Below, piece after piece: positions 2,425 to 25,577 of a stretch of DNA of 64,000 bases. A program made the position numbers and the translations under genes. The DNA is taken from sequence record MT596505.1; one strand, written 5' to 3'. How positions within the stretch are numbered: position 1 is the stretch's first letter; the number at the start of each line of letters is the position of its first letter. The DNA is from Staphylococcus phage vB_SepM_BE08. The notes under the pieces were generated by a model. That model did not search any database. It worked only from the letters and a program-made list of their open reading frames with translations, and was not told where the DNA came from.

Positions 2425-2444
2425 TCAATATGCTTCCTTTCTTA

Positions 2445-2966
2445 TTAAACTTCAATAATACATCTCTCTTTAGCTGTTGTAGTTTCCGTTCTGTTTTGGA
2501 ATTGTTTGTTCTCAAAATACATTAAAGTTCCTGTTTCTTTTACTTCACTTGGTAATAGGTTAGGTTTACTTACGCCACTATTAGGAACTAAGTCAATAAC
2601 GAAACCAATTTGTCTATACGTTCCTAATGGTAATTCATTACCTACAACATCTGCTTCAAGATAAACCCATTTAGCTCCTTCATCTTTAGCATTTTCTGTA
2701 GTAACTACTACCCAATCTTTATTACCGTAAGATATTTTTTCTTTATCATCATCTTGTGGTGACTGTGATGGTCTTACTAATGTTGCTCTATGTGTTTTCT
2801 TATATCCAATTATTTCCTGCAATGAAGTCGTTTTCTCGTCTGGTTGTGGTGGGTTAGTTTCACTAGACCACGGTGTTGTACGACCTACTACTAAATAAGT
2901 AGAATTAGCTTTACTAACTAAGTATTTTGCTAACTCTACATGTGAATTATACGTTGCTATAGCCAT
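2445..2966 (-). CDS. virion structural protein of the baseplate/tail-fiber module, function unknown
   Basis: 173-aa ORF in the late operon, directly downstream of a strong promoter (3046..3074) and a conserved leader. Confidence 0.45.
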
Positions 2967-3045
2967 ATTTATTATTTCCTTTCATATTAAGGTTTATCAT
3001 ATTCATAATTAATATAACAGATACTCTAGTTGTATCTTCTACATA

Positions 3046-3074
3046 ATTATATCACAAATTAGTAAAAAATACAA
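3046..3074 (-). promoter_or_regulatory. sigma-A-type promoter (minus strand): -35 TTGTAT, 17-nt spacer, extended -10 TGtgaTATAAT
   Basis: Read directly on the minus strand. Followed by a conserved 23-nt leader element (3001..3023) that is also present at 21949..21971. Confidence 0.55.
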
Positions 3075-3089
3075 CTAAAGATTTAAATT

Positions 3090-5744
3090 TTATTTAATTT
3101 CTACTAAACTTATTTTATTAATCTTAAGTGCTTCATTTATATTAGAATCTGTATATATTTTTACAGATTCATTTTTTCTAATAGAAGTTGTTTTAGCTGT
3201 AAATTCTTTTTCCAATAATCCTTGTGATTTGTCAATCTCTGCTGGATAGAATACTACTTCACTCATACCTGTGTTTGTATTTACAACGTTAACTGTTGTT
3301 ACTTCTGGTGATAATTCTCCTAAAATAGTTACTTTATATTTATGTCCGCTTATAATAGGTTGCTCTAGCTCATATTTAGCTCCGTTTATATAAGATACTA
3401 TCTGAGGTATATTACTATCTTTCAATATATTTACAGTTTCCCTAGGTGCCAAACTTATTTCAGTTTCAAAGAAATTAACTTTAGGATTAGTATCTACATA
3501 ATAACTTGAATCTGTAAATTGTAACTCAGATAACTCATCTAATGTTCTAGCTGAACCTAATCTTAAATCTTCTACATATTTAAGTTTAGAATAATCAATA
3601 TCATCTAATGAAGTATACGTATTTATATCTAATACAGTAGATTTAATAATTTCTCCACTTGATGAATCTATAATACCGTTGTTAGTGTCACTAATAACTT
3701 TTAATGTATCTAAGATTACAGAATACTCAGTATCCATATTAGTCCATAATGCATTAAAATAACCTATAGGCATAGTACTTACATTTTTCTCCCCTATTAA
3801 ATCTCTAATAGGAATTGTATTAATAGAACTTAAGAGAACTTCTGACATAGGTGTTATATCTGAGTAATTTACAAATTTAAGTCCATATAAATCTACTACT
3901 TTATTAGATATGGTTGTTTCTACCTCATTATCCTTTGAGTAATCTATTTTAGTTACAGTTTCCCAGTTCTTACCATCTTCAGAAATCATAATGTATAAAT
4001 CAGGATTAGGTGCATGCGTCACTTCAATTTTAAAATCTTGTATGTCAGTTCTAACACCGTTAAATTTATATATCTTCTCTATAAGGTTGTGCTTATCTGT
4101 ATCTACATTATATCCCTGTCTATACTTTTCTTCAATAGAAGAATAGCTACTTATAATTATAGAGTGCTCTAAATTATTTATATAACTATTTACTGTTTCA
4201 GTATCAGTTAAATACTTAGAGTTTCCATAGATTTCTTGTGGATTTAAATCAATACTCTTATTATCTGTAACTTTTATATACTGCACCTTTTTGTATGATG
4301 GTTGTGATATTATATCTCCATTAGTAGGACTAAATACTTTATAAGCTTCTACATAAAACATACTTTGAATTTCATCATAAAGTTTAACTACAGGAGTATA
4401 AGGATGTATTGTATATACTCCTGGTTCATAATGGTAGAATACCATATCTAAATAGTTTATGTCAAGTGTTACTTCATCATCGTAACCATAAACTTGTAAT
4501 CTAGTAAACATATTTAAATCATCATTTAAATAATCATTTAAATAACCTATACTAAAATCATAATCTTTCTCATAAAAAGAAACAGAATCATAATTTATTG
4601 TATTCCATCTATTTCTATCAAAATCATATATTTGTAGAACAATATTAACGTAATCATTTGGTGGTAAGACAGCTTTCAATGTTAATTTAAAATCAACCTG
4701 ACCTATATAATCAGAAGTCTCTCTTTTAGTTTTGTTTAATAGTACAGGTTTTGTTTTGAGTAAATACTCTCTTATATTAAAATTATTATAAATATACTCT
4801 ATACCCGTATTAGAATTAAATGTTACAGGTATACTAACATTATTTTTTTCATTAGTGTGTAAATAAAAATCAGTACTTAATTCTTCACTTTTATTTTTTA
4901 ATTCTGAAATTATATTTGCTACGGAAGAATTATATTGTGGTGTGTAATTATATGAAGACTTAATACTAACATTATTAAATATTCTCCCTACATTAGAAGA
5001 ACCCGTTAATACGTCTTCACTATTGATTAAACTTTTATTATTAATAAATACAGATTTATAATTAAGACTATCTGTTTTTCTTAATCCTAAATTAATATGT
5101 CCGTATAATAATTCATCATACCCATAGAAATTGGTAATATCTTCATACATTTCTACTTTCATGCTACCATTTAACCATTGATATATTAAGCTACCGTTAT
5201 TAGTAGCCCCGCCATCATAAGTTACATACAATTTAACTCCAGCTGGTTTAAATTCATTTATAATATCTATAATCTCTAAAGGGAAATAATTACCTATTGT
5301 AACATTAATAACTGCAAATCTATAATAGTAACCCATTAATTTGTCATTGCCATTTAATTCAGATTTATTAGTATAAAAAATATTTTTAAATGGTTCATAG
5401 ATACTAATATTAAGGTCATCTCTATCTAAGTAATACTTAATACCTTCAATAATAGCATTATTCGTACCTCTTTTTAAAAGTAAGTATTTAATGATTCTTT
5501 GTCTATATTTATCATCTTCCTCATCTACTTTACGATATACACCAAACCAATCTCCAAATTTATCTAAATACGTTCCTGTAGCACTTTTTAAAGAAGATTG
5601 TAACTTACTCTCAATTGTATCTCTCTCTACCGTATTTAACTCTTCATTTAAAGTGTTTAGTAGTATATAGTTTGTATCTTCATTAAGATTTTTATCTTTT
5701 TTTCTTCTTAATAATGGATGTAAGTTTTTCAAAAAACTACTCAA
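3090..5744 (-). CDS. large baseplate / tail-fiber-like structural protein (884 aa)
   Basis: Long, Asn/Tyr-rich ORF in the baseplate region, downstream of a baseplate-J-like gene. This is typical of myophage baseplate-attached fibre or wedge proteins. Confidence 0.5.
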   Translation of the reverse strand: MSSFLKNLHPLLRRKKDKNLNEDTNYILLNTLNEELNTVERDTIESKLQSSLKSATGTYLDKFGDWFGVYRKVDEEDDKYRQRIIKYLLLKRGTNNAIIEGIKYYLDRDDLNISIYEPFKNIFYTNKSELNGNDKLMGYYYRFAVINVTIGNYFPLEIIDIINEFKPAGVKLYVTYDGGATNNGSLIYQWLNGSMKVEMYEDITNFYGYDELLYGHINLGLRKTDSLNYKSVFINNKSLINSEDVLTGSSNVGRIFNNVSIKSSYNYTPQYNSSVANIISELKNKSEELSTDFYLHTNEKNNVSIPVTFNSNTGIEYIYNNFNIREYLLKTKPVLLNKTKRETSDYIGQVDFKLTLKAVLPPNDYVNIVLQIYDFDRNRWNTINYDSVSFYEKDYDFSIGYLNDYLNDDLNMFTRLQVYGYDDEVTLDINYLDMVFYHYEPGVYTIHPYTPVVKLYDEIQSMFYVEAYKVFSPTNGDIISQPSYKKVQYIKVTDNKSIDLNPQEIYGNSKYLTDTETVNSYINNLEHSIIISSYSSIEEKYRQGYNVDTDKHNLIEKIYKFNGVRTDIQDFKIEVTHAPNPDLYIMISEDGKNWETVTKIDYSKDNEVETTISNKVVDLYGLKFVNYSDITPMSEVLLSSINTIPIRDLIGEKNVSTMPIGYFNALWTNMDTEYSVILDTLKVISDTNNGIIDSSSGEIIKSTVLDINTYTSLDDIDYSKLKYVEDLRLGSARTLDELSELQFTDSSYYVDTNPKVNFFETEISLAPRETVNILKDSNIPQIVSYINGAKYELEQPIISGHKYKVTILGELSPEVTTVNVVNTNTGMSEVVFYPAEIDKSQGLLEKEFTAKTTSIRKNESVKIYTDSNINEALKINKISLVEIK

Positions 5745-12723: not shown

Positions 12724-15330
12724 CTAATATATAAAGTGATAATTTCCCTTAGGTAGACTACTTACTTTAAGCGTTCTCTCACCATAAGTATGGTAAGCTG
12801 AATAATTATATTCAGATATATGGATTGTTTTACCATCTTTAGAGACACCTTCTACAAAAGCAACATGACCTGTTCCGTGGTCTCCACTTTTGTAAGCTTC
12901 CCAGTTAAGAATAGCACCACGTTTAGGTGTTGTTCCTACACCTATACCCTGTGCTCTGGCGGCGTTGTCGTAATTATGAGCATCACCCCACGCTCCACAG
13001 GAAAGCCCAAACTGTTTACGTCTATTATATACATACCAAGTACATTCACCTACTAAACCACCTACTTGTGGATTTCCTGGGTAAGTTTTCTTATCCCACT
13101 TAGGTAAATCACCTTTGTACTTTTCTAATTTTTTAAGAGATTCTCCTCCACTAGCGTCTCCTCCTTCATCATCTCCGCCACCATCTTTACCTTTATTTTT
13201 TTCAGCTATGGCTTCTGATTTCATGTCTGCTAGTGATTTCTCTCCTAATAAACCACCAATAAAGTCTGAAGATTGTCCCCAAGGTGGAGCAAATCTAACA
13301 GGACTTCCGTCTGGTACTTCAGCTTCTTTAAGTCCTCTAGTTACTCCTATAGTTGTATAATAACCTTGTTTGTAATCAAATTTATGTTCTACTGATTCAA
13401 TGTAGAATTCCCAGACATCATTACGTTGTTCATCTTTAACAAACAATCGTTTTCCTAAATCATACTTGTGGTGTCCTAAAACAATTATATCTCCTGAATA
13501 GAAGTTAGGATTATTGTAATACCAATTATAAAGCATTTTACTAAATATCAACATAGGACTATCTGTAGCATCTGCTCCTACATCTGCACTAGCATTACTA
13601 ATTTCCTCTAATGACTTAATGTAATCTTTATATATCTGGTCGTCAGGAGGTGTTCCTTTATATTCCATATATTTTTCTACAAGTTTTTCAGCTTCTGCTT
13701 TACTACCGAATCTAAAGTTATTTGCTAAATCATCAATAGCTTTTTTCTTATTCTTTTTACCATCTTCACCTTCAAAAGATTTATTATCAGAGAAGTGTTT
13801 TTTAAGTTTCTCTTTAAGCTTAGGTACAGTAGCTATAGGTCTATTGTCTATTTGTTGTTCTGTTCCTGGATTATGACCTGTAACTTCTTTATACTTACTT
13901 TCAGAGATACTTCCAGTTTTTGAAAATTCTGCTACTAATTTTTTAGCTTGGTCTTTAGTTAAATCATGGTATCTACTAGATAGTATTTTAGCCCAACCTT
14001 CTTGTTTTGCATTTACTTCTTGTTGTCCTTGGTTTTTAAGGTCTTTTAATACTTTATCGTAAGTACCTTTTTGAGCTCCAGCATCTCTTTTATCAATAAT
14101 CTTTTTATAATCTTCTTCACTTAGTTTACCATCTTTTGAGAATTTGTCAACTATTTCTTGTGCATTTTCTTTCGTTAATCCTTTATATTTACTAGCTAAC
14201 TTTTTAACCCATTTATTTTTTGCTTTTGATACTTTATCTTTACCTTCTTTTTTAAGGTCTTTCATTACTTTATCATAAGATTCTTGTTCATCTCCAGCAT
14301 CATTGTTATCATCTTCTGTAGATGAGTTCTCTTCAATAGGTATATACATATTTTCTACTTCTAATTTAGAATAACCATATCTATCAACAAGCTCTTTATG
14401 ATATTGTGGTTTAGAAAATACATCAGCTTCCATTGTTTTAAGCATTTGTGGTGTTGTAACTGTAAAAATAGAATATGTCTCTACATCAGATTTACCTACA
14501 TCTTCTTCTACAAAGTCTTCAGAACTTACTGTCTCATAATCTAAAGCTTTCCATTGAGATTCATTAAAAGGTGTCTTACGCATAACTAATTGTGTTTTAT
14601 CAGCGTTTTTATCTTGACCGTTTCTAAAGAATAATTCATTAAATGGTTTAGCTGTAATCATATCCATCATTTGTTTTAAACTACCATCAAAGTTAGTTAA
14701 TTGAGTGGTATCTTTAAGATTTTCAAATGCAGTCCAGCTATCTAAACCATCCCAAGAAAAATGGTCGGATATAGTCTTATTATGGTTACCTTTACCATCA
14801 TCGTACTTATATCTCATAAATGGTATAAAATAATCTAATACCTCTTTCATTATTTGACTAGCATTAGAACCACTAAATTTTATTTTCTCACCATCTACTA
14901 ACCAACCTGTTGCTGGTAATACAGCTTGAACCTCTTGGATTACACCTAATCCAAATTTAATAAAAGGTTTAGAGAAAGCTTGACCTGTTATTCTATATGT
15001 GGTTTGGTCGTTGCTGTAACTTCCTATTTTAGATACTTGAGAAATCATACCTACTAATACTAGTCCTTCTTTATCATCTGCTGGATTAGGATTAATATAA
15101 ATCTTAACAATATCATTAATCATTAAAGCTTTATCCCAATTTGTATCTCCTGCTAGAGTAATGACAAAAGTAGCACTATCATCTGACATAGCATTTTTAG
15201 TTTGGAAACCTAGGACTTTATTTCCTACTTGCTCTCCTGTAACTTCTACAGCATTACTATATCTTAAAGTAAATATATTTTCATCTGTAACGAATTCTAA
15301 TCTTATATCAGGTCTTCTTATCCTTTTCAT
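12724..15330 (-). CDS. tail-associated murein hydrolase with a C-terminal CHAP peptidase domain
   Basis: The C-terminal ~130 aa carry a CHAP-like Cys-His pattern (GLVGECTWYVYNRR ... GHVAFVEGV ... HISEYNY). Its size and position after the tape-measure and transglycosylase genes match the virion-associated CHAP lysin of K-like phages. It also contains an internal ~55-aa tandem duplication. Confidence 0.8.
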   Translation of the reverse strand: MKRIRRPDIRLEFVTDENIFTLRYSNAVEVTGEQVGNKVLGFQTKNAMSDDSATFVITLAGDTNWDKALMINDIVKIYINPNPADDKEGLVLVGMISQVSKIGSYSNDQTTYRITGQAFSKPFIKFGLGVIQEVQAVLPATGWLVDGEKIKFSGSNASQIMKEVLDYFIPFMRYKYDDGKGNHNKTISDHFSWDGLDSWTAFENLKDTTQLTNFDGSLKQMMDMITAKPFNELFFRNGQDKNADKTQLVMRKTPFNESQWKALDYETVSSEDFVEEDVGKSDVETYSIFTVTTPQMLKTMEADVFSKPQYHKELVDRYGYSKLEVENMYIPIEENSSTEDDNNDAGDEQESYDKVMKDLKKEGKDKVSKAKNKWVKKLASKYKGLTKENAQEIVDKFSKDGKLSEEDYKKIIDKRDAGAQKGTYDKVLKDLKNQGQQEVNAKQEGWAKILSSRYHDLTKDQAKKLVAEFSKTGSISESKYKEVTGHNPGTEQQIDNRPIATVPKLKEKLKKHFSDNKSFEGEDGKKNKKKAIDDLANNFRFGSKAEAEKLVEKYMEYKGTPPDDQIYKDYIKSLEEISNASADVGADATDSPMLIFSKMLYNWYYNNPNFYSGDIIVLGHHKYDLGKRLFVKDEQRNDVWEFYIESVEHKFDYKQGYYTTIGVTRGLKEAEVPDGSPVRFAPPWGQSSDFIGGLLGEKSLADMKSEAIAEKNKGKDGGGDDEGGDASGGESLKKLEKYKGDLPKWDKKTYPGNPQVGGLVGECTWYVYNRRKQFGLSCGAWGDAHNYDNAARAQGIGVGTTPKRGAILNWEAYKSGDHGTGHVAFVEGVSKDGKTIHISEYNYSAYHTYGERTLKVSSLPKGNYHFIY

Positions 15331-15386: not shown

Positions 15387-16184
15387 TTAAACTCTTCTAT
15401 ATTGATTGGAGAAGATACTTAAATCTGTATTCATAACATTATTAAACTTACTTTCTACAGCTTCTCCTAATTCTTCAGAATTATTTTGATTACCTTGTAC
15501 ATTCACATTAACTCTAACATTATTGTTATTATTCACGTTACTAGACATTGAATTACTATTAGAGCTTCTTGTAGGTAAAGGTGCTGTATTGTTAAGTAAA
15601 GCACTTGTCACAGGACTTACAGGTTCTTGTGGTGCTGAGAATCTACCACCTTTACCTCCTTTAGCTCTTCCTCCTGTAGGAGACCAACCACCGTTAGGGT
15701 TATAGTCGCTCTTCCAGTTTTTATTATTAAAGAAAGCTAATAATTGGTCGTATCCATTATGAATGTTTCCATGTCCTTTTACTTTATAGTTGTTGAAAGT
15801 ACTAGGAACATATTGTAAAAGACCTTGTGCCTCATTACCGCCACTGTTTATATCTTTAATTTGTTGTTTTATTTTAGGGTCTCCACCAGATTCTTTTTGA
15901 ATAAGACTTGCTATTCCGTCTACATCTTTATCTGATATTTTAACACCCATTGCTTTGGCGGCTTTTCTAATATCATCTTTCCATTTATCAGCTGATTTTT
16001 TCTTATCTCCACCTGCTGAATCCCCTACGTCAGAGTCATCAGAACTACCTGAATCACTTCCTCCTCCGTCTAAAGATTTAGCATCATTTATTAATTGTTC
16101 AGCTCTATCTAATAAACTTTTATAAGTTTTAAGGTTTTTAGTCTCAGAAGCATTATTTTTCTCTCTGAGTTGTTCGGTAGTCAT
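15387..16184 (-). CDS. virion-associated lytic transglycosylase (SLT-like) protein
   Basis: Carries an SLT-type motif: IQKESGGDPKIKQQIKDINSGGNEAQGLLQYVPSTFNNY. Ends with GGKGGRFSAPQ, a motif also found at the C-terminus of the tape-measure exon 2. Confidence 0.6.
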   Translation of the reverse strand: MTTEQLREKNNASETKNLKTYKSLLDRAEQLINDAKSLDGGGSDSGSSDDSDVGDSAGGDKKKSADKWKDDIRKAAKAMGVKISDKDVDGIASLIQKESGGDPKIKQQIKDINSGGNEAQGLLQYVPSTFNNYKVKGHGNIHNGYDQLLAFFNNKNWKSDYNPNGGWSPTGGRAKGGKGGRFSAPQEPVSPVTSALLNNTAPLPTRSSNSNSMSSNVNNNNNVRVNVNVQGNQNNSEELGEAVESKFNNVMNTDLSIFSNQYRRV

Positions 16185-16246
16185 TTTACCTTTTTTCTTT
16201 TTATCTCCTAGTATGCCATACGTTAAAGTATATAAGTTTTTAAATA

Positions 16247-17100
16247 TTAGTATTGTAAATTTTTATTCATGTAATTAACTACTTCATTTACAATCATATC
16301 ACTTGCTTTATCTACATCATAACCTTCTGGAATAGTTAAATTTAAGTCTAAATTCTTACTTCTTGTTGTTGATTCTACTGTTTCTGTCTGTGGAGGTGAA
16401 AACCTACCACCTTTACCACCTTTTAAGAATTTATCTGAACTACCCATTATACTAGCAATCATTGTATCCCAGTTTCCTGCTGTTGCATATTCATGTTGTC
16501 CTCCATTATGACGCATTTTGTGTAGTGTTTTTTGTCCTCTACTATAGAAATTTTTAGCTATCCACTTAGCTCCACCAACAATACCTAAACCATAATTAAA
16601 TCCGTTATTAGGATTGTTATCAAACGCACCAATTCCGTACCAGTTACCTTTTTTAGGGTCTCCTCCATGTGATAGGTTGGAAGTACCCCAAGCTGTTTCT
16701 ACAGCACTATGTGCTACTAAGTAACGAGGGTCTAATCCAGATGCTTTACCTGCTTTCATGTATATTTCTCCTAAACCACGCATTTTAGAATTTTTAGGAG
16801 CCATAGCGTCAATCCATTTATTTAACATCTTAGCATTAACGCCCTTAGCTGTTTTACCTAAATCGTGTTTAGTTATATCTGAATTAGTAAAGTTTTTACC
16901 ATTTAAGTAATCTAGTTCACCTACAGAACCACCTTCATCTCCTCCACCAGAGTCTGATGATTCTAAGTTAGCTATTACGTTATCAAAGAATTGGCTTAAT
17001 ACAGGTATGTTTTTATTTTGTTCTCGTGCATTTTTCTCTCTTAAAGTTTCAAGTCTAAATCTTTCTTTTAGATTATTTCTCTTCTTACCCTTCTTCTTAC
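16247..17100 (-). CDS. tape-measure protein, exon 2, carrying a GH73/FlgJ-type glucosaminidase-like domain
   Basis: The frame stays open upstream of the annotated Met back to ~17100 (GKKKGKKRNNLKERFRL...) with no start codon or RBS, so this is a downstream exon. It carries the motif AHSAVETAWGTS ... NWYGIGAFD. Confidence 0.6.
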
Positions 17101-17600
17101 CATAGGTTAAAATATATAAAACATTTATAAATTTTATCCTTTTATATAGGTCTTAGAAGGATAGTTATTTTTTTAAAAATATAAAGTTGGAATAAAATTT
17201 AAAAACTTATATATTTTAACTTTATTTAGCTATAGAACGCTACTTCTAAGCCCTAGGTCTATTCCTAGTCACTACCTTTCGATACGTGTGTAGACTATTT
17301 GACTTCCCTATTATAGGGTGGGTATTTTTCTTCCACCAATCACTTGTGGTTTTACTCTCCCGTCAGGAGATAGTCGTTGAGGGTCTTCCTTATCTTTTGA
17401 CTTAGGACTTTCCCTGCTAAAGACCGATTACGTATACCTTAGGATTTAACCTTAGCACATCTAACTAATTTTTTCTACTTTCGTTACTTTACCATTTATC
17501 CTTTCGGATTCTGTTTCAGTTTAGTTAGCTTTACGGATTCTTAGCATTTAACACCCGATACTAGCAACTTACGCTACTAGCAAGGCAATTTGTTTGTAAC
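17101..17600 (-). mobile_element. ORF-less group I intron in the tape-measure gene (boundaries approximate, ~±20 nt)
   Basis: The minus-strand RNA has a P7 5' strand (CAACGACUAUC) and a P7 3' strand (AAAUAGUCUAC). It is GC-enriched and structured, and has extensive similarity to the intron at 24690..25154. With these boundaries the length (500 nt) keeps the exon 1 and exon 2 frames continuous across a retained UGU codon. Confidence 0.65.
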
Positions 17601-20600
17601 AATCGTTACCTCTAAATCCTGAAATTCCTTTTTTATTTTCTTTATCTCCCTCTTTTTCAAATTCACTTAAACCTTGATGACTTAATTGTGGTGCCATACT
17701 AATAAGTGCTGGATTACCTGGTCTTCTGTTTGAACCTTCTTCTTGTGGTGAACCCATTCCACCTTTTCCAGCTCCTCCTAAGAAGCCTATTTTTGTGGGG
17801 TCATTTGTTGGTAAGCCTTTTCCTTTTCCTTTTCCTTTGCCTTTTTTCTTGCCACCAAAACCAAATATTTTTTTACCCCAATTATAAAGAAGTCCTTTAT
17901 CTTTATCTTTTTTAGGTTTATCCCAGTTAAGGTCTATGAAACCACCTTTACCAAATAACTTTTTAGTGTTCATGGAATCTTTAGCTAATCCTTCTGCATG
18001 TTTATTGAGATTATTTCCATATCCTAATCCTAGAGGGTCTATGACCCCGCCCATAAAGTTACCAAAACTTTGAGCTGTTCCTTCCTTATCACCTTTGGCT
18101 AAACTTGATGCCATATCAAAACCTGTTAGTCCTAAACCTAACCATCCTGCATGTTTCATTAATCCGCCTGCATGACTTAGTACATTACTTGTACCACTAG
18201 CTGTTATACCACTTGTTCCACCTTTTCCTTTAGGTATTTTAGATAAAAGACCTTTTCCTTTAGAGATTATACCTTTTCCTGTTGTCTTGGCATTACTTCC
18301 TATTCCTTTCCAGTCAATTCCTCGACCTTTGGAAACAACTCCTCTACCAATGTTTTTAGCATTGTTTCCGAGTCCTTTCCAATCAATTCCTTTAATGCCT
18401 TCTCCTGCTCTAGTTGTTCCACCTTTTATTTTCTTACCTAAATCTCCTAAACCTTTTATCTGTCCGCCTCGGCTTGTATCGGTAGGTTTATATTCTCCAA
18501 CTTGAATAAGTCTTTTACCAAAATCACCAACTCTTCCAAGTCTTCCGCCTTTTCTACCTGTTGAGCCTTTGTGGAATGTTCCACCACCATTACCATTAGG
18601 TTTTTTAGGGGAGCCTCCACCGCCTATTGGAGTTCCAGAACCATTATCTGTTCTTCCTCTACGACCTCCTGCTCTTCCATTTCTACCTTTTCCTCTGCCT
18701 CTTCTTCCTAATAAAGATTCTCCGTTAGCTCTTCTACCTAACATCTCTGAACCTTTCATCATTGCTATAGATTTCATTAAAGAAACAGCAAAAGCCATGG
18801 CACTAGCTCCTGCTAAGTAGAAAGGTGCTGGAAGACTCATTAATGCTGTATTAACATTTCTTATTTTTCCAGTCATATCGTAAAGGTTTTCTGCTAATCT
18901 ATCAGCTTTAGCTTTTCCTTGGTCGTCTTTACCTTCTTGTGATTCTTTATAATCTTTAGAGTTTTTATCTCTTTCTTTAGAACCTTCTTTAGATGTTTTC
19001 TTTTTATAGTCTTCTAAAGCTTTCTTAGTTAGCTTACCTTCTTCAGCCATTTTAAATAACTCATCAGACTGTTCTAAGGTAGCATCTACACCCATTTGTT
19101 TTAGGCTTTCATTAAAGGCTATCTTTTGTCCTTTTTTAGAGCTTGATACTTGAGTAGCTTGTTGATAAAGGTCTGATACATTTTCAGGGTCGGCAATACC
19201 TTTATCCATACGTTTTTGTAAATCATACCTACCTTCTAAACCTTGGTATTGTGAGCCCCAACCCATTGCATTTCTAATATAAGGGTCTTGCATACCATTT
19301 CTAATTCCATCATTAAGGCTTGACATGAATTCTGCACCTTGTTGTCCTTGTAATCCTTTAGAACCTGAAGATGCTAACATAGATTGCATAGATGATACAT
19401 TACTTAAATCATTTTTTGTCATCGTTCTTCCTTGACCAACTGACTCAGCAATTGAAGATAAAGCTTTTAATTGCTCTTCATTTCTTCCAACCATTCCTGA
19501 TTCTTTTAGTCCACCTAAGAAAGCACTTTGTATATCTTTAATATCTGCTCCAGAATCAATAGCACCAGTGTGCATTAATGTATTCATAGAGTCTCTATAA
19601 GCTTGGTCGTCTGCGATACCCATCGCTTTTCCACCTGTAGCTAACTCTTTAACTCCACTATTTACATTGTCTTGACCTTTATATCCTACACTTCCCATGT
19701 AGTCTGAAGCAAATTTAAGCATATCAGTACTATTATAACCTAGATGATTATCTATTGACATCTCTTCAAAATTATGTCTTACTGATTTATAATCACTTGT
19801 ACCCATTTGCTGACCTAAGGCTATTTTTTGTGGTCGGTTTGATTCACTTAAAGACTTACCTTTCATGTACATACCGCCACCAACAGCCATACCAGCCATT
19901 ACACCGTGTGAGGCAATGGAAGGTGCACGTTCTCTAAAGATACCTTTAAACGTTCCTCTAGCTGGGTCTATTCTTCGGTCATCCATCTGTTTACTAGCTA
20001 CATTATCAAAGTAGTTAGATGTAGTATCCATTTGACGTATTAATTTTTCAATGGAATCTATTTCTTTGGCTCTAGCTTTATTATTAGCTTCTATTTGTGC
20101 TCTTTCTTGTTGATAGGTAGATTTATCAATTTCTTTATTTGTAAATCTCCTATTAAGATTAGTCATTGATGTATCATTTTTATCTCTATTACGTAAATCA
20201 GCCAATTGTTTTTTTAGGTCAGCTGAATCTCTACGCATAAATTGAGATTTACCGATTGCTGATTTAGTTTGAGTACCTGTATCATAAGACATTCTACCTG
20301 ATATTTCTGATTTATCTAAATTACGTCTTACTCTATACTCAGAAGCTCTTATCTGTTTCATCTTTTGTTGAGCTGTCATAGCATTATTTAAAGATTCATA
20401 ATAATCATCTGTAGCTTCACCTAGACGCTTCATATCTTGTATACGTGTATTAATACCACTATCGGTACCTACAGTTTTTGAAGAGAATTCATCTAAATTC
20501 TTAGTCATAGATTCTAAAGTATTATTTAATTTTTCATATGATTTTTGTAAATTTGTATTAGGTGCTTTACCCATTGCTATTTGTTCTTTTTGAGCATCGG

Positions 20601-20892
20601 ATATAGCATCTTTAAAATCATTAATTTCTTTAGTAGCTTTTCTTGTAGAATCTACTACTGTATTCATATCTTTAGAAGATATAAAAGCACTACCATCAGT
20701 TTTATCAGCAATATCTTTAATTCTTTTAAATTGAGATGCTATAATTTTTAGTTTATCAGCCATACCGTCAATCGGTTTGTCAAGCTCCATATTTTCTATA
20801 GCATCCATATAAGCTTGTATGATTTTTAAACTACTCTCTAACTGAGAGCTATCACCTGATATATTCAATCTATAGTTATCATTCATTGCCAT
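17601..20892 (-). CDS. tail tape-measure protein, exon 1
   Basis: ~1100 aa, Gly/Lys-rich with repeated KGxG segments, located just after the two chaperone-like genes. The in-frame stop at 17569 lies inside the intron. Confidence 0.75.
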
Positions 20893-20946: not shown

Positions 20947-21456
20947 CTACATATATAAATCATCATCGTCAAACTCATTAAGTGCGTCTTCAATACTTTG
21001 TTGTGAGTACTCTTCTTGATTATCACTAGTATTGTTAACTTGTTTGTCAAGCTCTTCAATATTCTTTTGAATTTGTGCCATTTTATTTTTATGAATTTCT
21101 CTTGCTTCCTCATCATCTTCTTCAGCTTCTGCACGTTCAGTCATCTTAATACGTTCTGATTCTGAAAGTCTGTCATAGGCTTGTTTTGCTAAGTCTTCAG
21201 CATCTAAGAAGTCTGGTACTGGCTCGAATTCTTCTTGTGATTCATCATACCATGAAGTATCATCATCTTCAACTGTACTATCGTAACCTTTATTTCGTCT
21301 TTCCATTTCTCTATTATCTAAATTCATACTTTCAATAATAAAGTGTATTTGGTAGGCATCTAAATTTTTGAAATTAGGGTCTGTAGGCAATACTTTAAAC
21401 TCTCTCATAATAGCCCACATATTCCTGGATAAAGGTCTCTTAACAAGTGCTTGCAT
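20947..21456 (-). CDS. acidic protein, candidate tail-assembly chaperone
   Basis: 169 aa, highly acidic C-terminus, immediately upstream of the tape-measure gene. This is the usual chaperone position. Confidence 0.4.
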   Translation of the reverse strand: MQALVKRPLSRNMWAIMREFKVLPTDPNFKNLDAYQIHFIIESMNLDNREMERRNKGYDSTVEDDDTSWYDESQEEFEPVPDFLDAEDLAKQAYDRLSESERIKMTERAEAEEDDEEAREIHKNKMAQIQKNIEELDKQVNNTSDNQEEYSQQSIEDALNEFDDDDLYM

Positions 21457-21487: not shown

Positions 21488-21898
21488 TTACCTACGAAAG
21501 GTTCCTAGGAAGTCAATCCAATCATCGTAAACTCGTACTAAAGGTATTAAGTTATATATTTTTTCTGGGTCACTTAACTCATCAGGTGCTTCTACACCTA
21601 CGACTTGAATTGTTGCTAACATTTGGTATGCTTTATAAATCTCATCGCTTTGGTATAAATCCATACCTCCTAAGTAATTTGAACGCATAGCGTTAATTGT
21701 ACCTTGCTCTAATGCATTAGGTACTCTTAATTTAATATTGAAATCTAATTTAATTTCTTTAAAATTATAATATTTCTCAAAAACATCATTTACTCCACGA
21801 ATAACTCTTGAAACTGTATTGTCTTGTTCTTGTTCTTTCTTTCTCTTTAACTCCTGTAATTCATCAGTGTTATTATTTTGTGTATTATTTTCAGCCAT
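21488..21898 (-). CDS. candidate tail-assembly chaperone / hypothetical
   Basis: 136-aa ORF upstream of the acidic protein and downstream of promoter 21994..22021. Confidence 0.4.
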   Translation of the reverse strand: MAENNTQNNNTDELQELKRKKEQEQDNTVSRVIRGVNDVFEKYYNFKEIKLDFNIKLRVPNALEQGTINAMRSNYLGGMDLYQSDEIYKAYQMLATIQVVGVEAPDELSDPEKIYNLIPLVRVYDDWIDFLGTFRR

Positions 21899-23375: not shown

Positions 23376-24662
23376 TTATTTAAAACTCTGAATGTAATCT
23401 ATATAGCTTATACTACTCAGTGTTTCTTCTTGTTCTTCTTTGGTAGCTTCTCTAATAGTATATCCTTTAACAGTTTTATACTTACCCTTAACACAACCTA
23501 CTACATTAGCTTTAGGTAGACCGTACTCTGAAAATAACATTTGTAAAGGTAACTTTATTACTTCATTACCTTTCTTAGCTACATATACTTTAATACGTTT
23601 ATCAGTTATAGTTTTAGCCTTCTCAGAAAAATCTTCATCCTCGTATCTCCATAAATAACCACAACATGTTTTTCTAGTACCTGTAACACATGCTCTAATA
23701 CCTGATGATTTTAATCCTAGATTTAAAAAATAATCTTGTGCTTCTTTTAAAGTAGTAAATCTAATTTCTTCTAAGGTTTTTACATTTAAACCTACTACAT
23801 TTTTAAACCTCTTTTGAACTCCTCTTCTTTTCATTAATCCTTTTATATTACCAACACTCATGTTAAACTTATCAGATGTTTCTTGTGCTGTATGATTTAA
23901 ATAATACTCTATAATATCTTTCTCATTATCTTTATACTTAGTAAATAACTCTATATTATTTGTATACTCTAATTCTACATTTAAAAAATCTTGTATTTTA
24001 TTAAAAATATTAAATTTATCTTCATTAGGATACTCTATATATAATAACTTAATATTATTTTCTATGCAATATATTTTCTTTATTTCATCTAATTCTTGAA
24101 TTTCTTTTAATGGTTTACTCCAAGAACCTGTTGCTTGTTTAAAATGCTGTTCTCCCATATACTCAATTGCATACTTGGATTCTTCTAATTCTATATAAAA
24201 ATCGAGTCTTTGAGGTCTTTTTAGTCCTGTATTGATAGATTTTTCACAAATAAAATTTATGTTATTCTCTTTAAGTATTGTTTGTATAATTCTTTCCCCT
24301 ATACTCTTCATATTATCTTTAGGACAATTTAAGTTCTTATTATTTTCAAAACTATTCCAAATTACATCCCACTCGTTCCCTTGAGGAGATAATAATAAAC
24401 ATCTTGATGTAGTGTACAAATTTTTTGGATATTCTAATACCTTATACCCTCTGCTTTGTGCGTATGTATCAAAATACATCTTCTTACCTTCATCTGTAAG
24501 AATTTTTATTGTTTTATTTTTATCTTTTAAAATATTATTACGAGTTAATTCACATTCACATCCTTTAAACTTACCTTCAATTACAGTACCTATATATTTA
24601 CTTCCTTGTTTCCTCTTAAGTATTATACCTTTATCTAAAGCTAATTTTTTTATATCTTCCAT
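23376..24662 (-). CDS. intron-associated homing endonuclease: DUF559/Vsr-like nuclease core followed by tandem NUMOD-like DNA-binding repeats
   Basis: Core motif RLDFYIELEESKYAIEYMGEQHF. The C-terminal half has three repeats of the type GIRACVTGTRKTCCGYLWRY. It has its own promoter-like TTGACA-17-TATCAT and an AGGAGG RBS at 24665..24720, and it follows the tail-tube intron. Confidence 0.6.
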   Translation of the reverse strand: MEDIKKLALDKGIILKRKQGSKYIGTVIEGKFKGCECELTRNNILKDKNKTIKILTDEGKKMYFDTYAQSRGYKVLEYPKNLYTTSRCLLLSPQGNEWDVIWNSFENNKNLNCPKDNMKSIGERIIQTILKENNINFICEKSINTGLKRPQRLDFYIELEESKYAIEYMGEQHFKQATGSWSKPLKEIQELDEIKKIYCIENNIKLLYIEYPNEDKFNIFNKIQDFLNVELEYTNNIELFTKYKDNEKDIIEYYLNHTAQETSDKFNMSVGNIKGLMKRRGVQKRFKNVVGLNVKTLEEIRFTTLKEAQDYFLNLGLKSSGIRACVTGTRKTCCGYLWRYEDEDFSEKAKTITDKRIKVYVAKKGNEVIKLPLQMLFSEYGLPKANVVGCVKGKYKTVKGYTIREATKEEQEETLSSISYIDYIQSFK

Positions 24663-24689: not shown

Positions 24690-25154
24690 CTTATGATACC
24701 ATATCATTTGTATTTTGTCAAGATAAATAGACCAAGAAATCAATCTCGGTCTACTAAATAGTAATGATTACGCTTTATCTGATGCGGTTAAATATGAAAA
24801 CGATTTATTTATTTACAAACGCTACTTTGTAAACCTGTGTCAATTCACATGCACTAGCTTTCACTACGTGGCTAGACTATTTGTTATCCCTAATTATTAG
24901 GGTAAGGATTTTTCTTCTCCCAATTACTTGGAGCTTTACTTCCGTCTTGTAACGGAATAGTCGTTGAACGTTTTCCTTAGGAATTACTTTCCCTTAGGAC
25001 TTTCGATGCTATACACCCATTACCTCAGTACTTAGGTTTTAACCTTATACCATCTTAACCATTTTTTCTACTTTCGTAACCTTCTAGTTTATTGTTTCCA
25101 ATTCCTATGTGGTTGGTTAAGCTTTAGAAGTTTCATAGCAATTAACCCTTCACT
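24690..25154 (-). mobile_element. group I intron at the 3' end of the tail tube gene (boundaries approximate)
   Basis: P7 5' strand UCAACGACUAUUCC and P7 3' strand AAAUAGUCUAGCC. Long blocks are shared with the tape-measure intron (for example CGAAAGUAGAAAAAAU and GGUUAAAaCCUAAG). The region is GC-enriched. Confidence 0.6.
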
Positions 25155-25577
25155 TCAGCAAATTACTTTACTAAAGGAGTTATTATTCTCAATTTCTTCT
25201 GTTACTATTTCATTAGTTCTCCATTCTTCATTGTAGTTATTAGCACTACAGCCATGGTAACTGATAATCACTTGTTTAGTTAAATTATCAATAACAAGAA
25301 TGTCGATAATATCTTTCTTAAGAATTTCTTCACCTAGTGAAGCATATCCTAATTTTGCAAAGTTTTCTTTTTTCATACGTAAACGTTCTACTGTTAACGT
25401 ACCTTCATATTTTAAGTAAACGTGTTCTTGTGGCATGATTGAACCAATTTCATACACACCAGTAGTTCCGTATTCACGTCTACCACTTGCTGATTGTGCT
25501 CTTCCTACTGGTTTACCTTTAATATACAACAATACGGTATTACCAGTATGGACTGTTTGTTTAGCTTGTGATGCCAT
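25155..25577 (-). CDS. tail tube protein
   Basis: 140 aa, immediately downstream of the sheath gene. Its size matches the ~142-aa tube protein of Twort/K-like phages. The C-terminal residues and stop may be altered by splicing of the adjacent intron. Confidence 0.7.
   Translation of the reverse strand: MASQAKQTVHTGNTVLLYIKGKPVGRAQSASGRREYGTTGVYEIGSIMPQEHVYLKYEGTLTVERLRMKKENFAKLGYASLGEEILKKDIIDILVIDNLTKQVIISYHGCSANNYNEEWRTNEIVTEEIENNNSFSKVIC

What the first reader, a model, noticed from the sequence alone, without database searches (positions are those of the whole stretch)
16247..20892. Tape-measure gene interrupted by an ORF-less group I intron, with a C-terminal glucosaminidase-like exon
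The 193-aa ORF downstream of the TMP ORF is open for another ~90 codons upstream with no start or RBS. The ~500-nt gap between them has group I P7 elements. Splicing would append a GH73/FlgJ-like domain (AHSAVETAWGTS ... NWYGIGAFD) to the tape-measure protein.
Basis: partly seen in the sequence, partly recalled or inferred. Interest (0 to 1): 0.55.

Follow-up and report, generated by a model that had tools for sequence, protein, structure and literature searches.

The report
Tape-measure gene split by IStron-like intron
The tail tape-measure gene of this Staphylococcus epidermidis phage is interrupted by a 509-base, gene-less, probably self-splicing RNA, and removing it should join a cell-wall-cutting domain to the tape-measure protein; sister phages were already reported to have this interruption, but its exact borders, which break the usual rule for such introns, were not known.

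Summary
All genes discussed are on the minus strand. The window is a Sepunavirus, a Twort-like S. epidermidis myophage.

The 1107-aa tape-measure (TMP) ORF and the start-less glucosaminidase ORF are two halves of one gene. One phage protein family profile covers them collinearly. Listeria and Bacillus relatives encode the same protein uninterrupted.

Between them lies a 509-nt ORF-less group I (IA2) intron, window 17608..17100. Its structure is supported by 43 compensatory base pairs.

A canonical splice after U gives a stop codon in every lineage. The borders that work are GG|UAAC...UAUGG|UA, so the 5' exon ends in G. This is the rule described for IS607-type ("group B") IStrons.

The intron also has their long AU-rich terminal hairpin and a similar 3' end. 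It is homologous to the published IStron of phage c-st and to a TnpB-carrying sibling in phage Fi4S2. The Fi4S2 junction was verified against an intron-less allele.

In five lineages, with intron lengths in all three classes modulo 3, this splice restores the frame. The predicted product is 1378 aa (149 kDa). Splicing itself is inferred, not shown.

A 2019 genome announcement already reported introns in this gene with undetermined borders, so this is a new member of a known kind.

The parts
17609..20892 (-). Exon 1 of the tape-measure gene: 1094 codons plus GG of the junction Gly codon.
   Evidence: ORF. phrog_1047 positions 1-925, E=1.4e-276. Two tail-assembly-chaperone ORFs lie directly upstream. 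5' splice site set at GG|U.
17100..17608 (-). 509-nt ORF-less group I (IA2) intron of the IS607-type IStron kind. It starts UAAC and ends CUAUGG.
   Evidence: Covariation. Homologues in other genes and phages. Frame restoration. No internal ORF.
17582..17612 (-). P1. Exon GAGG plus intron UAA (17612..17606) pairs with the internal guide UUGCCUU (17588..17582). The U-G wobble lies one position 3' of the splice site.
   Evidence: Read from the sequence. The P1 5' strand (exon purines, GG, then intronic UAA) and the guide UUGCCUU were read in window, Alsa_3 and KSAP7; the exon end GG and intronic UAA recur in all five lineages. The centroid fold forms this helix. Sibling introns place the guide at the same six bases before P2.
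17561..17580 (-). P2 hairpin CUAGUAGC-GUAA-GUUGCUAG. The annotated TMP stop codon (17571..17569) lies in its GUAA tetraloop.
   Evidence: 7 of 10 pairs have changes on both sides; 98% of cells paired (helix 1).
17293..17375 (-). P7 pseudoknot (GACUA 17375..17371 with UAGUC 17297..17293). It encloses P7.1, P7.2, the 3' strand of P3, and P8.
   Evidence: P7 is invariant in all 10 sequences. P7.1, P7.2 and P3 show 4, 3 and 4 pairs with changes on both sides (helices 13, 14, 15, 2).
17229..17288 (-). P9 (GAAA loop), P9.1 and P9.2. P9.2 has a conserved GUAGCG hexaloop at 17241..17236.
   Evidence: P9 covariation (helix 17). P9.1 and P9.2 were read by eye: their stems differ between window, Alsa_3, KSAP7 and Fi4S2 while staying complementary.
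17106..17220 (-). Long AU-rich inverted-repeat hairpin. It sits where sibling elements carry TnpB plus guide RNA, or other ORFs.
   Evidence: Self reverse-complement match, 124 nt at 71%. Predicted hairpin, z=-2.68. The outer 14-bp helix GUUAAAAUAUAUAA/UUAUAUAUUUUAAC is kept in Alsa_3 and KSAP7 through G-U changes.
16247..17099 (-). Exon 2: U of the junction Gly codon, 283 codons, and the stop codon.
   Evidence: phrog_1047 positions 948-1243. dN/dS of the start-less part is 0.17-0.34. Alignment with A511 gp97 and Shbh1 gp124.
16439..16768 (-). Glucosaminidase (GH73-type) domain, residues 1206-1315 of the spliced protein.
   Evidence: Pfam PF01832, E=1.7e-9, 38.9 bits against a cut-off of 30.2.

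Best explanation
The tape-measure gene is one gene in two exons.

**Proposed mechanism (inferred)**
- A single transcript runs from the TMP start through the glucosaminidase ORF.
- The 509-nt RNA between the exons (17608..17100) folds into a subgroup IA2 group I ribozyme and removes itself.
- P1 is formed by exon ...GAGG plus intronic UAA, paired with the guide UUGCCUU.
- As in IS607-type ("group B") IStrons, cleavage falls after the exon's GG, one position 5' of the U-G wobble.
- The intron's last base is the terminal G of CUAUGG.
- Exon 2 begins UAAG. Its UAA can take the place of the intronic UAA on the guide (a P10-like pairing), which would align the two exons.
- Ligation gives AGA GG^U AAG, read as ...GISGFRGKKKGKKR.... 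The product is a 1378-aa, 149-kDa TMP with a C-terminal glucosaminidase, as in Listeria and Bacillus Herelleviridae.

**Proposed origin (inferred)**
- The element is most likely a former IStron that lost its transposase, TnpB and guide-RNA cargo.
- What remains is the ribozyme, the AU-rich inverted-repeat hairpin and the GG-type ends.

**Shown versus inferred**
- Shown: anatomy, covariation, homology, frame logic and the junction of a sibling element.
- Inferred: splicing of this intron, the exact phosphodiester cleaved, and the loss of cargo.
For: **Split gene**
- One PHROG profile covers both ORFs collinearly.
- Uninterrupted homologues exist: A511 gp97 and Shbh1 gp124.
- The 91 start-less codons are under the same purifying selection as the rest of exon 2.
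- Gene callers give this ORF six different N-termini in different lineages, with product lengths from 193 to 319 aa. No start codon is conserved.

**Ribozyme**
- 81 pairs in 17 helices with IA2 order. 97.5% of cells are paired, against 33-46% when partners are slid.
- 43 pairs have changes on both sides; 0 of 500 shuffles reach that.
- The whole intron folds with z=-4.03.

**Borders**
- GG|U...GG| restores the frame in window/BE05/Quidividi (509/512 nt), Alsa_3 (513), CF5 (504), KSAP7/Romulus (557) and L020 (514). All three length classes modulo 3 are represented.
- A splice after the U gives a stop within 0-1 codons in every lineage.

**Family rule**
[quoted passage not shown] Their first base is U, they end in CGG, and they have a 15-34 bp AU-rich inverted-repeat stem.
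- BcISt1 was shown experimentally to splice after G (PMC4227781).
- For the IS607-family CboIStron, the target-adjacent motif (TAM) is TGGG and the guide-RNA scaffold ends UCGG. For the two C. senegalense IS607 IStrons, RNA-seq junctions matched the predicted splice sites (bioRxiv 10.1101/2023.11.20.567912).

**Homology**
- The core is 84.8% identical over 110 nt to the c-st IStron region (E=6e-26). That region carries a MerR/resolvase-type TnpA and a TnpB.
- The core is 81.5% identical over about 300 nt to an element in the Fi4S2 sbcD gene. That element carries TnpB and RAGATH-18.
- The Fi4S2 junction GGG|U...CGG|C gives a 97-aa peptide that is 100% identical, in one piece, to the intron-less gene of phage Golestan-100.
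- The 3' ends are alike: AAAUGUUUUAUAUAUUUUAACCUAUGG here, AAAUGUAUAUAUUUUUCGUAUCGG in c-st.

**Expression context**
- No promoter-like or terminator-like site on the gene strand inside the gap.
Against: - No RNA or protein data exist for this intron. Splicing is inferred.
- Rfam gives no group I hit. The published c-st IStron and three siblings are missed as well, so this says little.
- The 3' end is UGG or AGG rather than the CGG consensus.
- Here the U-G wobble is followed by two possible A-U pairs. Most group B IStrons are reported to have an internal loop there.
- Both junctions read GGUA(A). Sequence alone cannot place the cut within those bases. GG|U is chosen because the intron must end in G and by analogy with the siblings.
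- In Silviavirus (KSAP7, Romulus) an in-frame ATG lies 11 codons upstream of the junction. The Romulus record annotates promoters in the AU-rich insert. Independent expression of exon 2 is therefore possible in that genus.
- No full IStron and no intron-less allele was found at this TMP site.
Confidence: 0.82

Rival explanations
1. The splicing and product are the same as in the best explanation, but the element was never an IStron. It is an ordinary group I intron of the ribozyme lineage from which IS607 IStrons were built. Its AU-rich hairpin is a remnant of a lost homing-endonuclease ORF, or simply a peripheral extension.
For: - The same ribozyme core occurs without IS parts in the tail-tube gene of this window. 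There the 5' exon also ends in G, there is no AU-rich hairpin, and a free-standing endonuclease-like ORF follows the gene.
- PT1-1 carries an ORF of a different kind directly after the core; the ORFs that follow the ECP3 and Golestan tail-tube copies lie downstream of the core, and in Golestan past exon 2.
- Tourasse et al. describe a Turicibacter intron related to group B IStrons with a GG-ending site. They regard it as not being an ex-IStron.
- No RAGATH-18, TnpA or TnpB remnant is present in the window.
Against: - The hairpin sits exactly where Fi4S2 and c-st carry their IS cargo. It is long and AU-rich, as described for group B.
- It is followed by a 3' end much like that of c-st.
- ORF-less BcISt1 copies that keep only the inverted-repeat stem-loop are documented.
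Confidence: 0.2
2. These are two separate genes. The structured RNA does not splice; it is a relic or has another role. TMP ends at its annotated stop codon, and the glucosaminidase is translated on its own.
For: - Every public record annotates two CDSs.
- Silviavirus has an in-frame ATG plus annotated promoters upstream of exon 2.
Against: - In Sepunavirus, 91 conserved codons under purifying selection precede the first start codon.
- In Alsa_3 a TAA stop lies two codons upstream of the junction codon.
- The called N-termini differ in every lineage.
- No promoter-like site lies in the gap here.
- The intron core is kept by compensatory changes.
- The frame is restored in all three length classes.
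- Uninterrupted homologues exist.
Confidence: 0.06
3. The intron splices canonically after the U of the U-G pair. The TMP would then end at the junction (...GFRG-stop) and exon 2 would be left untranslated, or would need a frameshift.
For: - A textbook P1 with a U-G wobble can be drawn at GGU|AAC in all lineages.
Against: - This splice gives a stop within 0-1 codons in all five lineages, while exon 2 stays under purifying selection.
- In the Fi4S2 sibling, a splice after U cannot give the conserved GHYH sequence of the intron-less allele.
- In the tail-tube sibling, no U-ending 5' exon is possible.
- BcISt1 splices after G experimentally.
Confidence: 0.03

Closest known systems
Group B (IS607-type) IStrons: BcISt1 of Bacillus cereus including its ORF-less copies, CbISt1-4 of Clostridium botulinum and phage c-st, CboIStron/CseIStron (Tourasse et al. 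2014, PMC4227781; Zedaveinyte et al., bioRxiv 10.1101/2023.11.20.567912)
   Same: - IA2 ribozyme at the 5' end.
- Insertion after a GG-ending site (GAGG here).
- The first intron base is U, with the U-G wobble shifted one position from the splice site.
- Long AU-rich inverted-repeat hairpin before the 3' end.
- The 3' end finishes in GG.
- Direct sequence homology to the c-st element.
- ORF-less derivatives are known for BcISt1.
   Different: - No TnpA, TnpB or guide RNA (RAGATH-18) is left.
- The 3' end is UGG or AGG, not CGG.
- The host is a virulent staphylococcal myophage, and the target is an essential virion gene.
- The element is fixed at one site across three staphylococcal phage lineages (Sepunavirus, Silviavirus and unclassified Twort-like phages), rather than scattered in many copies.
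- IStrons were not reported from Staphylococcus phages in the papers found.
[quoted passage not shown] 2019, PMC6597688)
   Same: This is the same element. These genomes are 97% identical to the window across it.
   Different: That report says the borders could not be determined, and its record leaves the region without a CDS. Here the borders, class and product are proposed.
Twort orf142 (tail-tube) and nrdE group I introns (Landthaler and Shub 1999, 2002; cited from my own knowledge and via PMC5526547)
   Same: These are self-splicing IA2 introns in structural genes of Twort-like staphylococcal phages. The window's own tail-tube gene carries a 71%-identical sibling of the TMP intron.
   Different: The crystallised Twort orf142-I2 ribozyme uses a U-ending 5' exon (my own knowledge). 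I could not read the 1999 paper to check which Twort intron corresponds to the sibling here.
Uninterrupted TMP with C-terminal glucosaminidase: Listeria phage A511 gp97 and Bacillus phage Shbh1 gp124
   Same: Same protein family and domain order, and the same position after the tail-assembly-chaperone genes.
   Different: They have no intron. In staphylococcal phages a second, SLT-bearing copy of the C-terminal module follows as a separate ORF.
Cluster J mycobacteriophage introns in capsid and tail genes (PMC3706429, title and abstract only)
   Same: Group I introns that interrupt virion structural genes of phages.
   Different: The hosts are unrelated. I did not compare the sequences.

Membership tests
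Group I intron (subgroup IA2) | Conserved core helices in the order P1-P2-P3-P4-P5-P6-P7-(P7.1, P7.2)-P3'-P8-P7'-P9, with the P3/P7 pseudoknot | tested here: met
   17 helices in that order. 43 of 81 pairs have changes on both sides, and 97.5% of cells are paired. P7 is invariant.
Group I intron (subgroup IA2) | The intron ends in G (omega-G) | tested here: met
   The only frame-restoring borders that end in G are ...UAUG|G or ...UAUGG|. All five lineages end in GG.
Group I intron (subgroup IA2) | The 5' exon ends in the U of a U-G wobble in P1 | tested here: not met
   The U-G wobble exists, but a splice after the U gives a stop codon in all lineages. The 5' exon must end in G. The same exception is published for group B IStrons.
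Group I intron (subgroup IA2) | Match to the curated Rfam group I model | tested here: inconclusive
   No hit even at E up to 10. The published c-st IStron and three sibling introns are also missed.
Group I intron (subgroup IA2) | Self-splicing with guanosine | not testable with these tools
   This needs in vitro transcription with GTP, or RT-PCR from infected cells.
IS607-type (group B) IStron | Insertion after a GG-ending site, with U as the first base of the element | tested here: met
   gagg|UAAC, aagg|UAAC and aagg|UAAU in the five lineages.
IS607-type (group B) IStron | 3' terminus ...CGG | tested here: inconclusive
   The ends read UAUGG, UAUUGG, UUAUGG and ACAGG. GG is kept and C is not. 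The last ~25 bases read like those of c-st; this was judged by eye, not aligned or scored.
IS607-type (group B) IStron | Long, more than 80% AU inverted-repeat stem enclosing the cargo near the 3' end | tested here: met
   17220..17106 is a self-complementary hairpin, almost entirely A-U and G-U pairs. It occupies the same position as the arms that flank TnpB in Fi4S2.
IS607-type (group B) IStron | IS607 cargo: serine-recombinase TnpA and/or TnpB, with a guide RNA | tested here: not met
   No ORF of 20 aa or more on the gene strand. No RAGATH-18 in the window. Cargo is present in the relatives Fi4S2 and c-st. The element can therefore only be an ORF-less derivative or a relative, not a full IStron.
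IS607-type (group B) IStron | Sequence homology of the ribozyme to known IStrons | tested here: met
   c-st IStron region: 84.8% over 110 nt, E=6e-26. Fi4S2 TnpB-bearing element: 81.5% over about 300 nt.
Herelleviridae tape-measure protein with C-terminal lysin | One family profile covered end to end; gene placed after the tail-assembly-chaperone pair | tested here: met
   phrog_1047 positions 1-925 plus 948-1243 of 1251. Chaperone PHROGs match the two ORFs upstream. Pfam Glucosaminidase in exon 2.

The most novel reading that the evidence does not exclude
The G-ending 5' splice site may be a property of a whole clade of IA2 ribozymes spread through Herelleviridae phages, not a by-product of the IS607 target motif. 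Three members support this:
- the tape-measure intron here;
- the tail-tube intron here, which has a G-C pair at the site and no IS parts;
- the sbcD IStron in Fi4S2.

In addition, incomplete splicing of the TMP intron could give two tape-measure isoforms. The unspliced form would be 1107 aa without a lysin domain. The spliced form would be 1378 aa with one. Splicing efficiency would then set how many cell-wall hydrolase domains each tail carries.
Probability: 0.25. Interest if true: 0.6.

Novelty: new member of a known kind. Interest (0 to 1): 0.42.

Why it matters
**Annotation**
- About 70 public genomes of staphylococcal Twort-like phages annotate this gene as two unrelated CDSs. These include therapy candidates such as phiIBB-SEP1, Romulus, Remus and Stau2.
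- The second CDS is often called "endolysin", and its N-terminus is guessed differently in each lineage.
- The proposed gene model gives a 1378-aa tape-measure protein with a glucosaminidase at its end. This matters for reading tail structures and for mining virion-associated lysins.

**Intron biology**
- This would explain why the 2019 report could not place the borders: the intron breaks the rule that the 5' exon ends in U.
- It ties staphylococcal phage introns to IS607 IStrons.
- It offers a small (509 nt), cargo-free natural ribozyme, with siblings in the same genome, for studying how a group I intron selects a G-ending 5' splice site.

Tried and rejected
- **Rfam scans.** I scanned the whole window at gathering threshold, and 16000-18200 at E up to 10. 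Neither gave a group I hit. Controls showed that Rfam also misses sibling introns and the published c-st IStron, so I dropped this as a test.
- **Canonical splice sites.** A 5' exon ending in U combined with either terminal G gives a stop or a short out-of-frame tail in every lineage. I looked for other U-ending sites in the right phase, such as GUU|AC. These have no matching guide pairing and are not conserved, so I rejected them.
- **+1/-1 frameshifting or reinitiation after a canonical splice.** I found no slippery site or start codon. Rejected.
- **A closer intron-less allele to fix the junction residue by residue.** The protein search returned only exon-2-type proteins. The viral-contig scan returned only intron-bearing loci. 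Two further contigs also carry the intron. The A511 and Shbh1 alignment is too divergent right at the junction.
- **ECP3 tail-tube copy.** I could not locate its short second exon, so I used the window's own tail-tube copy instead.
- **Landthaler and Shub 1999.** The paper is not held in the library.
- **Covariance model.** I did not build one, because the alignment has 421 columns and the limit is 400.
- **P1, P9.1 and P9.2.** These were assessed by eye, because MAFFT misaligned those parts.

Full report
**Identity of the window**

The region is 97-98% identical to S. epidermidis myophages of the genus Sepunavirus, such as phiIBB-SEP1, phiIPLA-C1C, BE04/05/25, Quidividi, Terranova and Twillingate. 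All genes discussed are on the minus strand. The order is:
- two tail-assembly-chaperone ORFs (21898..21488 and 21456..20947);
- the 1107-aa ORF (20892..17569);
- a gap;
- the 193-aa ORF (16828..16247);
- an SLT-domain ORF (16184..15387);
- a CHAP-domain ORF (15330..12724).

**Check of the observation**

- The frame of the 193-aa ORF is open up to 17152. It has no ATG, GTG or TTG before 16828.
- Exon 2 carries Pfam Glucosaminidase (E=1.7e-9).
- The gap contains the P7 strands GACUA and UAGUC.
- No promoter-like or terminator-like site lies on the gene strand within the gap.
- No ORF of 20 aa or more lies inside the gap on that strand, apart from the tail of the TMP ORF and a 29-aa ORF (17666..17577) that overlaps only the first bases of the intron.

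**One gene, two pieces**

- PHROG family phrog_1047 has 1251 profile positions. It matches the long ORF at positions 1-925 (E=1.4e-276) and the downstream ORF at 948-1243 (E=9.8e-48).
- Listeria phage A511 gp97 (1242 aa) and Bacillus phage Shbh1 gp124 (1240 aa) are single ORFs with the glucosaminidase domain at the C-terminal end.
- In a five-way alignment, the start-less extension (ERFRLETLREKNAREQNKNIP...) aligns with internal parts of those proteins.
- The 91 start-less codons have dN/dS of 0.17-0.34 against four other lineages. The rest of exon 2 has 0.22-0.31.
- Gene callers give this ORF lengths of 193, 207, 242, 282, 289 and 319 aa in different lineages, each with a different N-terminus. 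This is what one expects when there is no true start codon.

**The gap is a conserved structured RNA of a mobile family**

- A sensitive DNA search with the gap found 131 phage records and 317 places.
- The same site is occupied in Sepunavirus, Twort-like (Alsa, PG-2021_27) and Silviavirus genomes.
- The roughly 300-nt core also occurs in other genes and hosts: tail-tube genes of staphylococcal and Enterococcus phages, the sbcD gene of phage Fi4S2, and phages of Clostridium, Brochothrix, Bacillus and Alicyclobacillus.
- One more copy lies in this window, at 25173..24804.
- An alignment of ten copies from three genes gives a consensus fold with the helix order of a subgroup IA2 group I intron.
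- With P7 added as a pseudoknot, 97.5% of cells are paired, against 33-46% when partners are slid by 1-3 columns. 43 of 81 pairs have changes on both sides, and 0 of 500 shuffles reach that number.
- The whole intron folds better than shuffled sequence (z=-4.03).
- Rfam finds nothing. It also misses the siblings and the published IStron of phage c-st, so that negative result carries no weight.

**The border problem**

- A textbook P1 can be drawn: exon GAGG, U, AA paired with the guide UUGCCUU, which sits directly 5' of P2. The siblings place their guides at the same position.
- Splicing after that U and after either terminal G gives ...GFRG-stop or a 12-codon out-of-frame tail. The same failure occurs in every lineage.
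- Both junctions read GGUA(A). Any cut within those bases gives the same in-frame mRNA. The requirement that the intron end in G leaves only G|G or GG|U.

**Resolution from the literature and from siblings**

- Tourasse et al. (2014, PMC4227781) describe "group B" IStrons, which are IA2 introns fused to IS607 elements. Their features are:
  - they insert after GG-ending sites (AGGG, TGGG, GAGG);
  - they have a U as first base that is not part of the exon;
  - the U-G pair is shifted by one position from the splice site;
  - they end in CGG;
  - they have a 15-34 bp, more than 80% AU, inverted-repeat stem around the cargo.
- Those authors showed experimentally that BcISt1 splices after G. They also found ORF-less copies that keep only the stem-loop.
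- Zedaveinyte et al. report the target-adjacent motif TGGG and a guide-RNA scaffold ending UCGG for the IS607-family CboIStron. For the two C. senegalense IS607 IStrons, RNA-seq junctions matched their predictions.
- The TMP intron fits these features:
  - it reads gagg|UAAC...CUAUGG|uaag;
  - it has a roughly 115-nt AU-rich hairpin at 17220..17106;
  - its 3' end is much like that of the c-st IStron;
  - its core is 84.8% identical over 110 nt to that IStron region, which encodes a MerR/resolvase TnpA and a TnpB.
- A closer sibling (81.5% identity) sits in the sbcD gene of phage Fi4S2. It carries TnpB and the RAGATH-18 RNA.
- With borders GGG|U...CGG|C, its exons give a 97-aa peptide that is 100% identical, in one uninterrupted piece, to the intron-less gene of phage Golestan-100. 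The same peptide is 92.8% identical to the Kayvirus genes. A U-ending exon cannot give that sequence.
- The window's own tail-tube intron (25187..24801) also has a G-ending 5' exon (GAG|A). Its spliced peptide ...TEEIE|FSYLTASDKA matches intron-less Kayvirus genes in one piece.

**Frame test across lineages**

With GG|U...GG|, the intron lengths are:
- 509 or 512 nt in Sepunavirus;
- 513 nt in Alsa_3;
- 504 nt in CF5;
- 557 nt in KSAP7 and Romulus;
- 514 nt in metagenomic contig L020.

All three classes modulo 3 occur. In each case the fusion reads through 278-296 further residues to the normal stop codon. The genomic frame offset between the two ORFs therefore tracks the intron length. This is expected only if precise removal of the intron matters.

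**Product**

The spliced mRNA encodes 1378 aa (149.3 kDa) with junction ...KKGISGFRG|KKKGKKRNNLKERF. The glucosaminidase domain is at residues 1206-1315. The last 12 codons and the stop codon of the annotated TMP ORF are intronic. That stop codon lies in the GUAA loop of P2.

**Mechanism proposed, and what remains inferred**

- The guide UUGCCUU can pair with exon AGG plus the intronic UAA before the first step.
- After the first step it could pair with exon AGG plus the UAA that begins exon 2. This would be a continuous P1/P10 helix over the ligated junction.
- In support, the first two bases of exon 2 are UA in all five lineages. The U is a Gly wobble position that coding alone would leave free.
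- The minimum-free-energy fold also pairs the guide with the 3' junction.
- This step, the exact bond cleaved, and the splicing itself are all inferences.
- The origin as an ex-IStron is likely but not proven. A plain intron of the same ribozyme clade remains possible, since the tail-tube sibling has no IS features.

**Prior knowledge**

- Freeman et al. [quoted passage not shown] The Quidividi record leaves the region without a CDS.
- Other records annotate two CDSs, with names such as tail lysin, endolysin and glucosaminidase.
- I found no paper that links staphylococcal phage introns to IStrons.

**Verdict**

The new elements are its class and its borders. It is a new member of a known kind, of moderate interest.

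Noticed in passing
window 25577..24768 (minus strand): The tail-tube gene is also split: exon 1 at 25577..25188, a 387-nt ORF-less intron at 25187..24801 whose core is 71% identical to the TMP intron, and exon 2 at 24800..24768 (FSYLTASDKA-stop). The spliced peptide matches intron-less Kayvirus genes in one piece. The 5' exon ends in G (GAG|A), with a G-C pair and no U-G wobble at the site.
   Followed up: yes
window 24662..23376 (minus strand): A 428-aa ORF with an I-HmuI/NUMOD-like endonuclease domain lies just downstream of the tail-tube exon 2, outside the intron. It appears to have its own promoter-like sequence and ribosome-binding site, which suggests a free-standing homing endonuclease next to an ORF-less intron.
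   Followed up: partly
window 16184..15387 and 17099..16247 (minus strand): The SLT-domain ORF matches the same C-terminal part of phrog_1047 (961-1251) as exon 2 does (948-1243). Both carry KGGKGGRFS[A/P]PQ after the lytic domain. The SLT ORF ends ...SIFSNQYRRV, like the C-terminus of A511 gp97 (...FFSKQYKRT). This looks like a tandem duplication of the TMP C-terminal module with the lytic domain swapped.
   Followed up: partly
window 17571..17569: The annotated stop codon of the TMP ORF (UAA) lies in the GUAA tetraloop of intron helix P2. The ORF simply runs 12 codons into the intron.
   Followed up: yes
window 17241..17236; same loop in L001, L003, L008, L009 and the window tail-tube intron: The P9.2 hexaloop GUAGCG is kept in almost every family member while its stem changes by compensation. 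RNAalifold paired its GC with the GC of the internal guide. Its real partner is unknown.
   Followed up: no
L010 (Staphylococcus phage Fi4S2) 1983..3855: The sbcD/Mre11-like gene carries an IStron with cargo: the same ribozyme family, a TnpB ORF (2424..3698), a RAGATH-18 RNA (3742..3832) and a 3' end ...ACGG. The record annotates the second exon from a false start inside the RAGATH-18 element.
   Followed up: yes
L013 (Clostridium phage c-st) about 2790..5275: The published IStron CbISt3 (TnpA, TnpB and RAGATH-18 at 5124..5185) sits immediately upstream of the phage's tape-measure gene (CST131). Rfam does not recognise its group I part.
   Followed up: partly
L001 5523 and L007 4023 (Silviavirus KSAP7, Romulus): In Silviavirus an in-frame ATG lies 11 codons upstream of the 3' splice site, inside the intron's 3' hairpin arm. 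The Romulus record annotates promoters in the AU-rich insert. Exon 2 might also be expressed alone in that genus.
   Followed up: partly
window 17141..17106 (minus strand): An AAAGGA Shine-Dalgarno-like motif followed by ATG opens a 5-codon mini-ORF (MFYIF-stop) inside the 3' hairpin arm. Alsa_3 has the same arrangement (MICIF-stop). Its significance is unknown.
   Followed up: no
L009 (phage Golestan-105-M) 1711..2376: The tail-tube gene there holds two introns: a Twort orf142-I2-like one with a U-ending 5' exon, and then the G-ending family member. The two are separated by a roughly 60-nt exon.
   Followed up: partly
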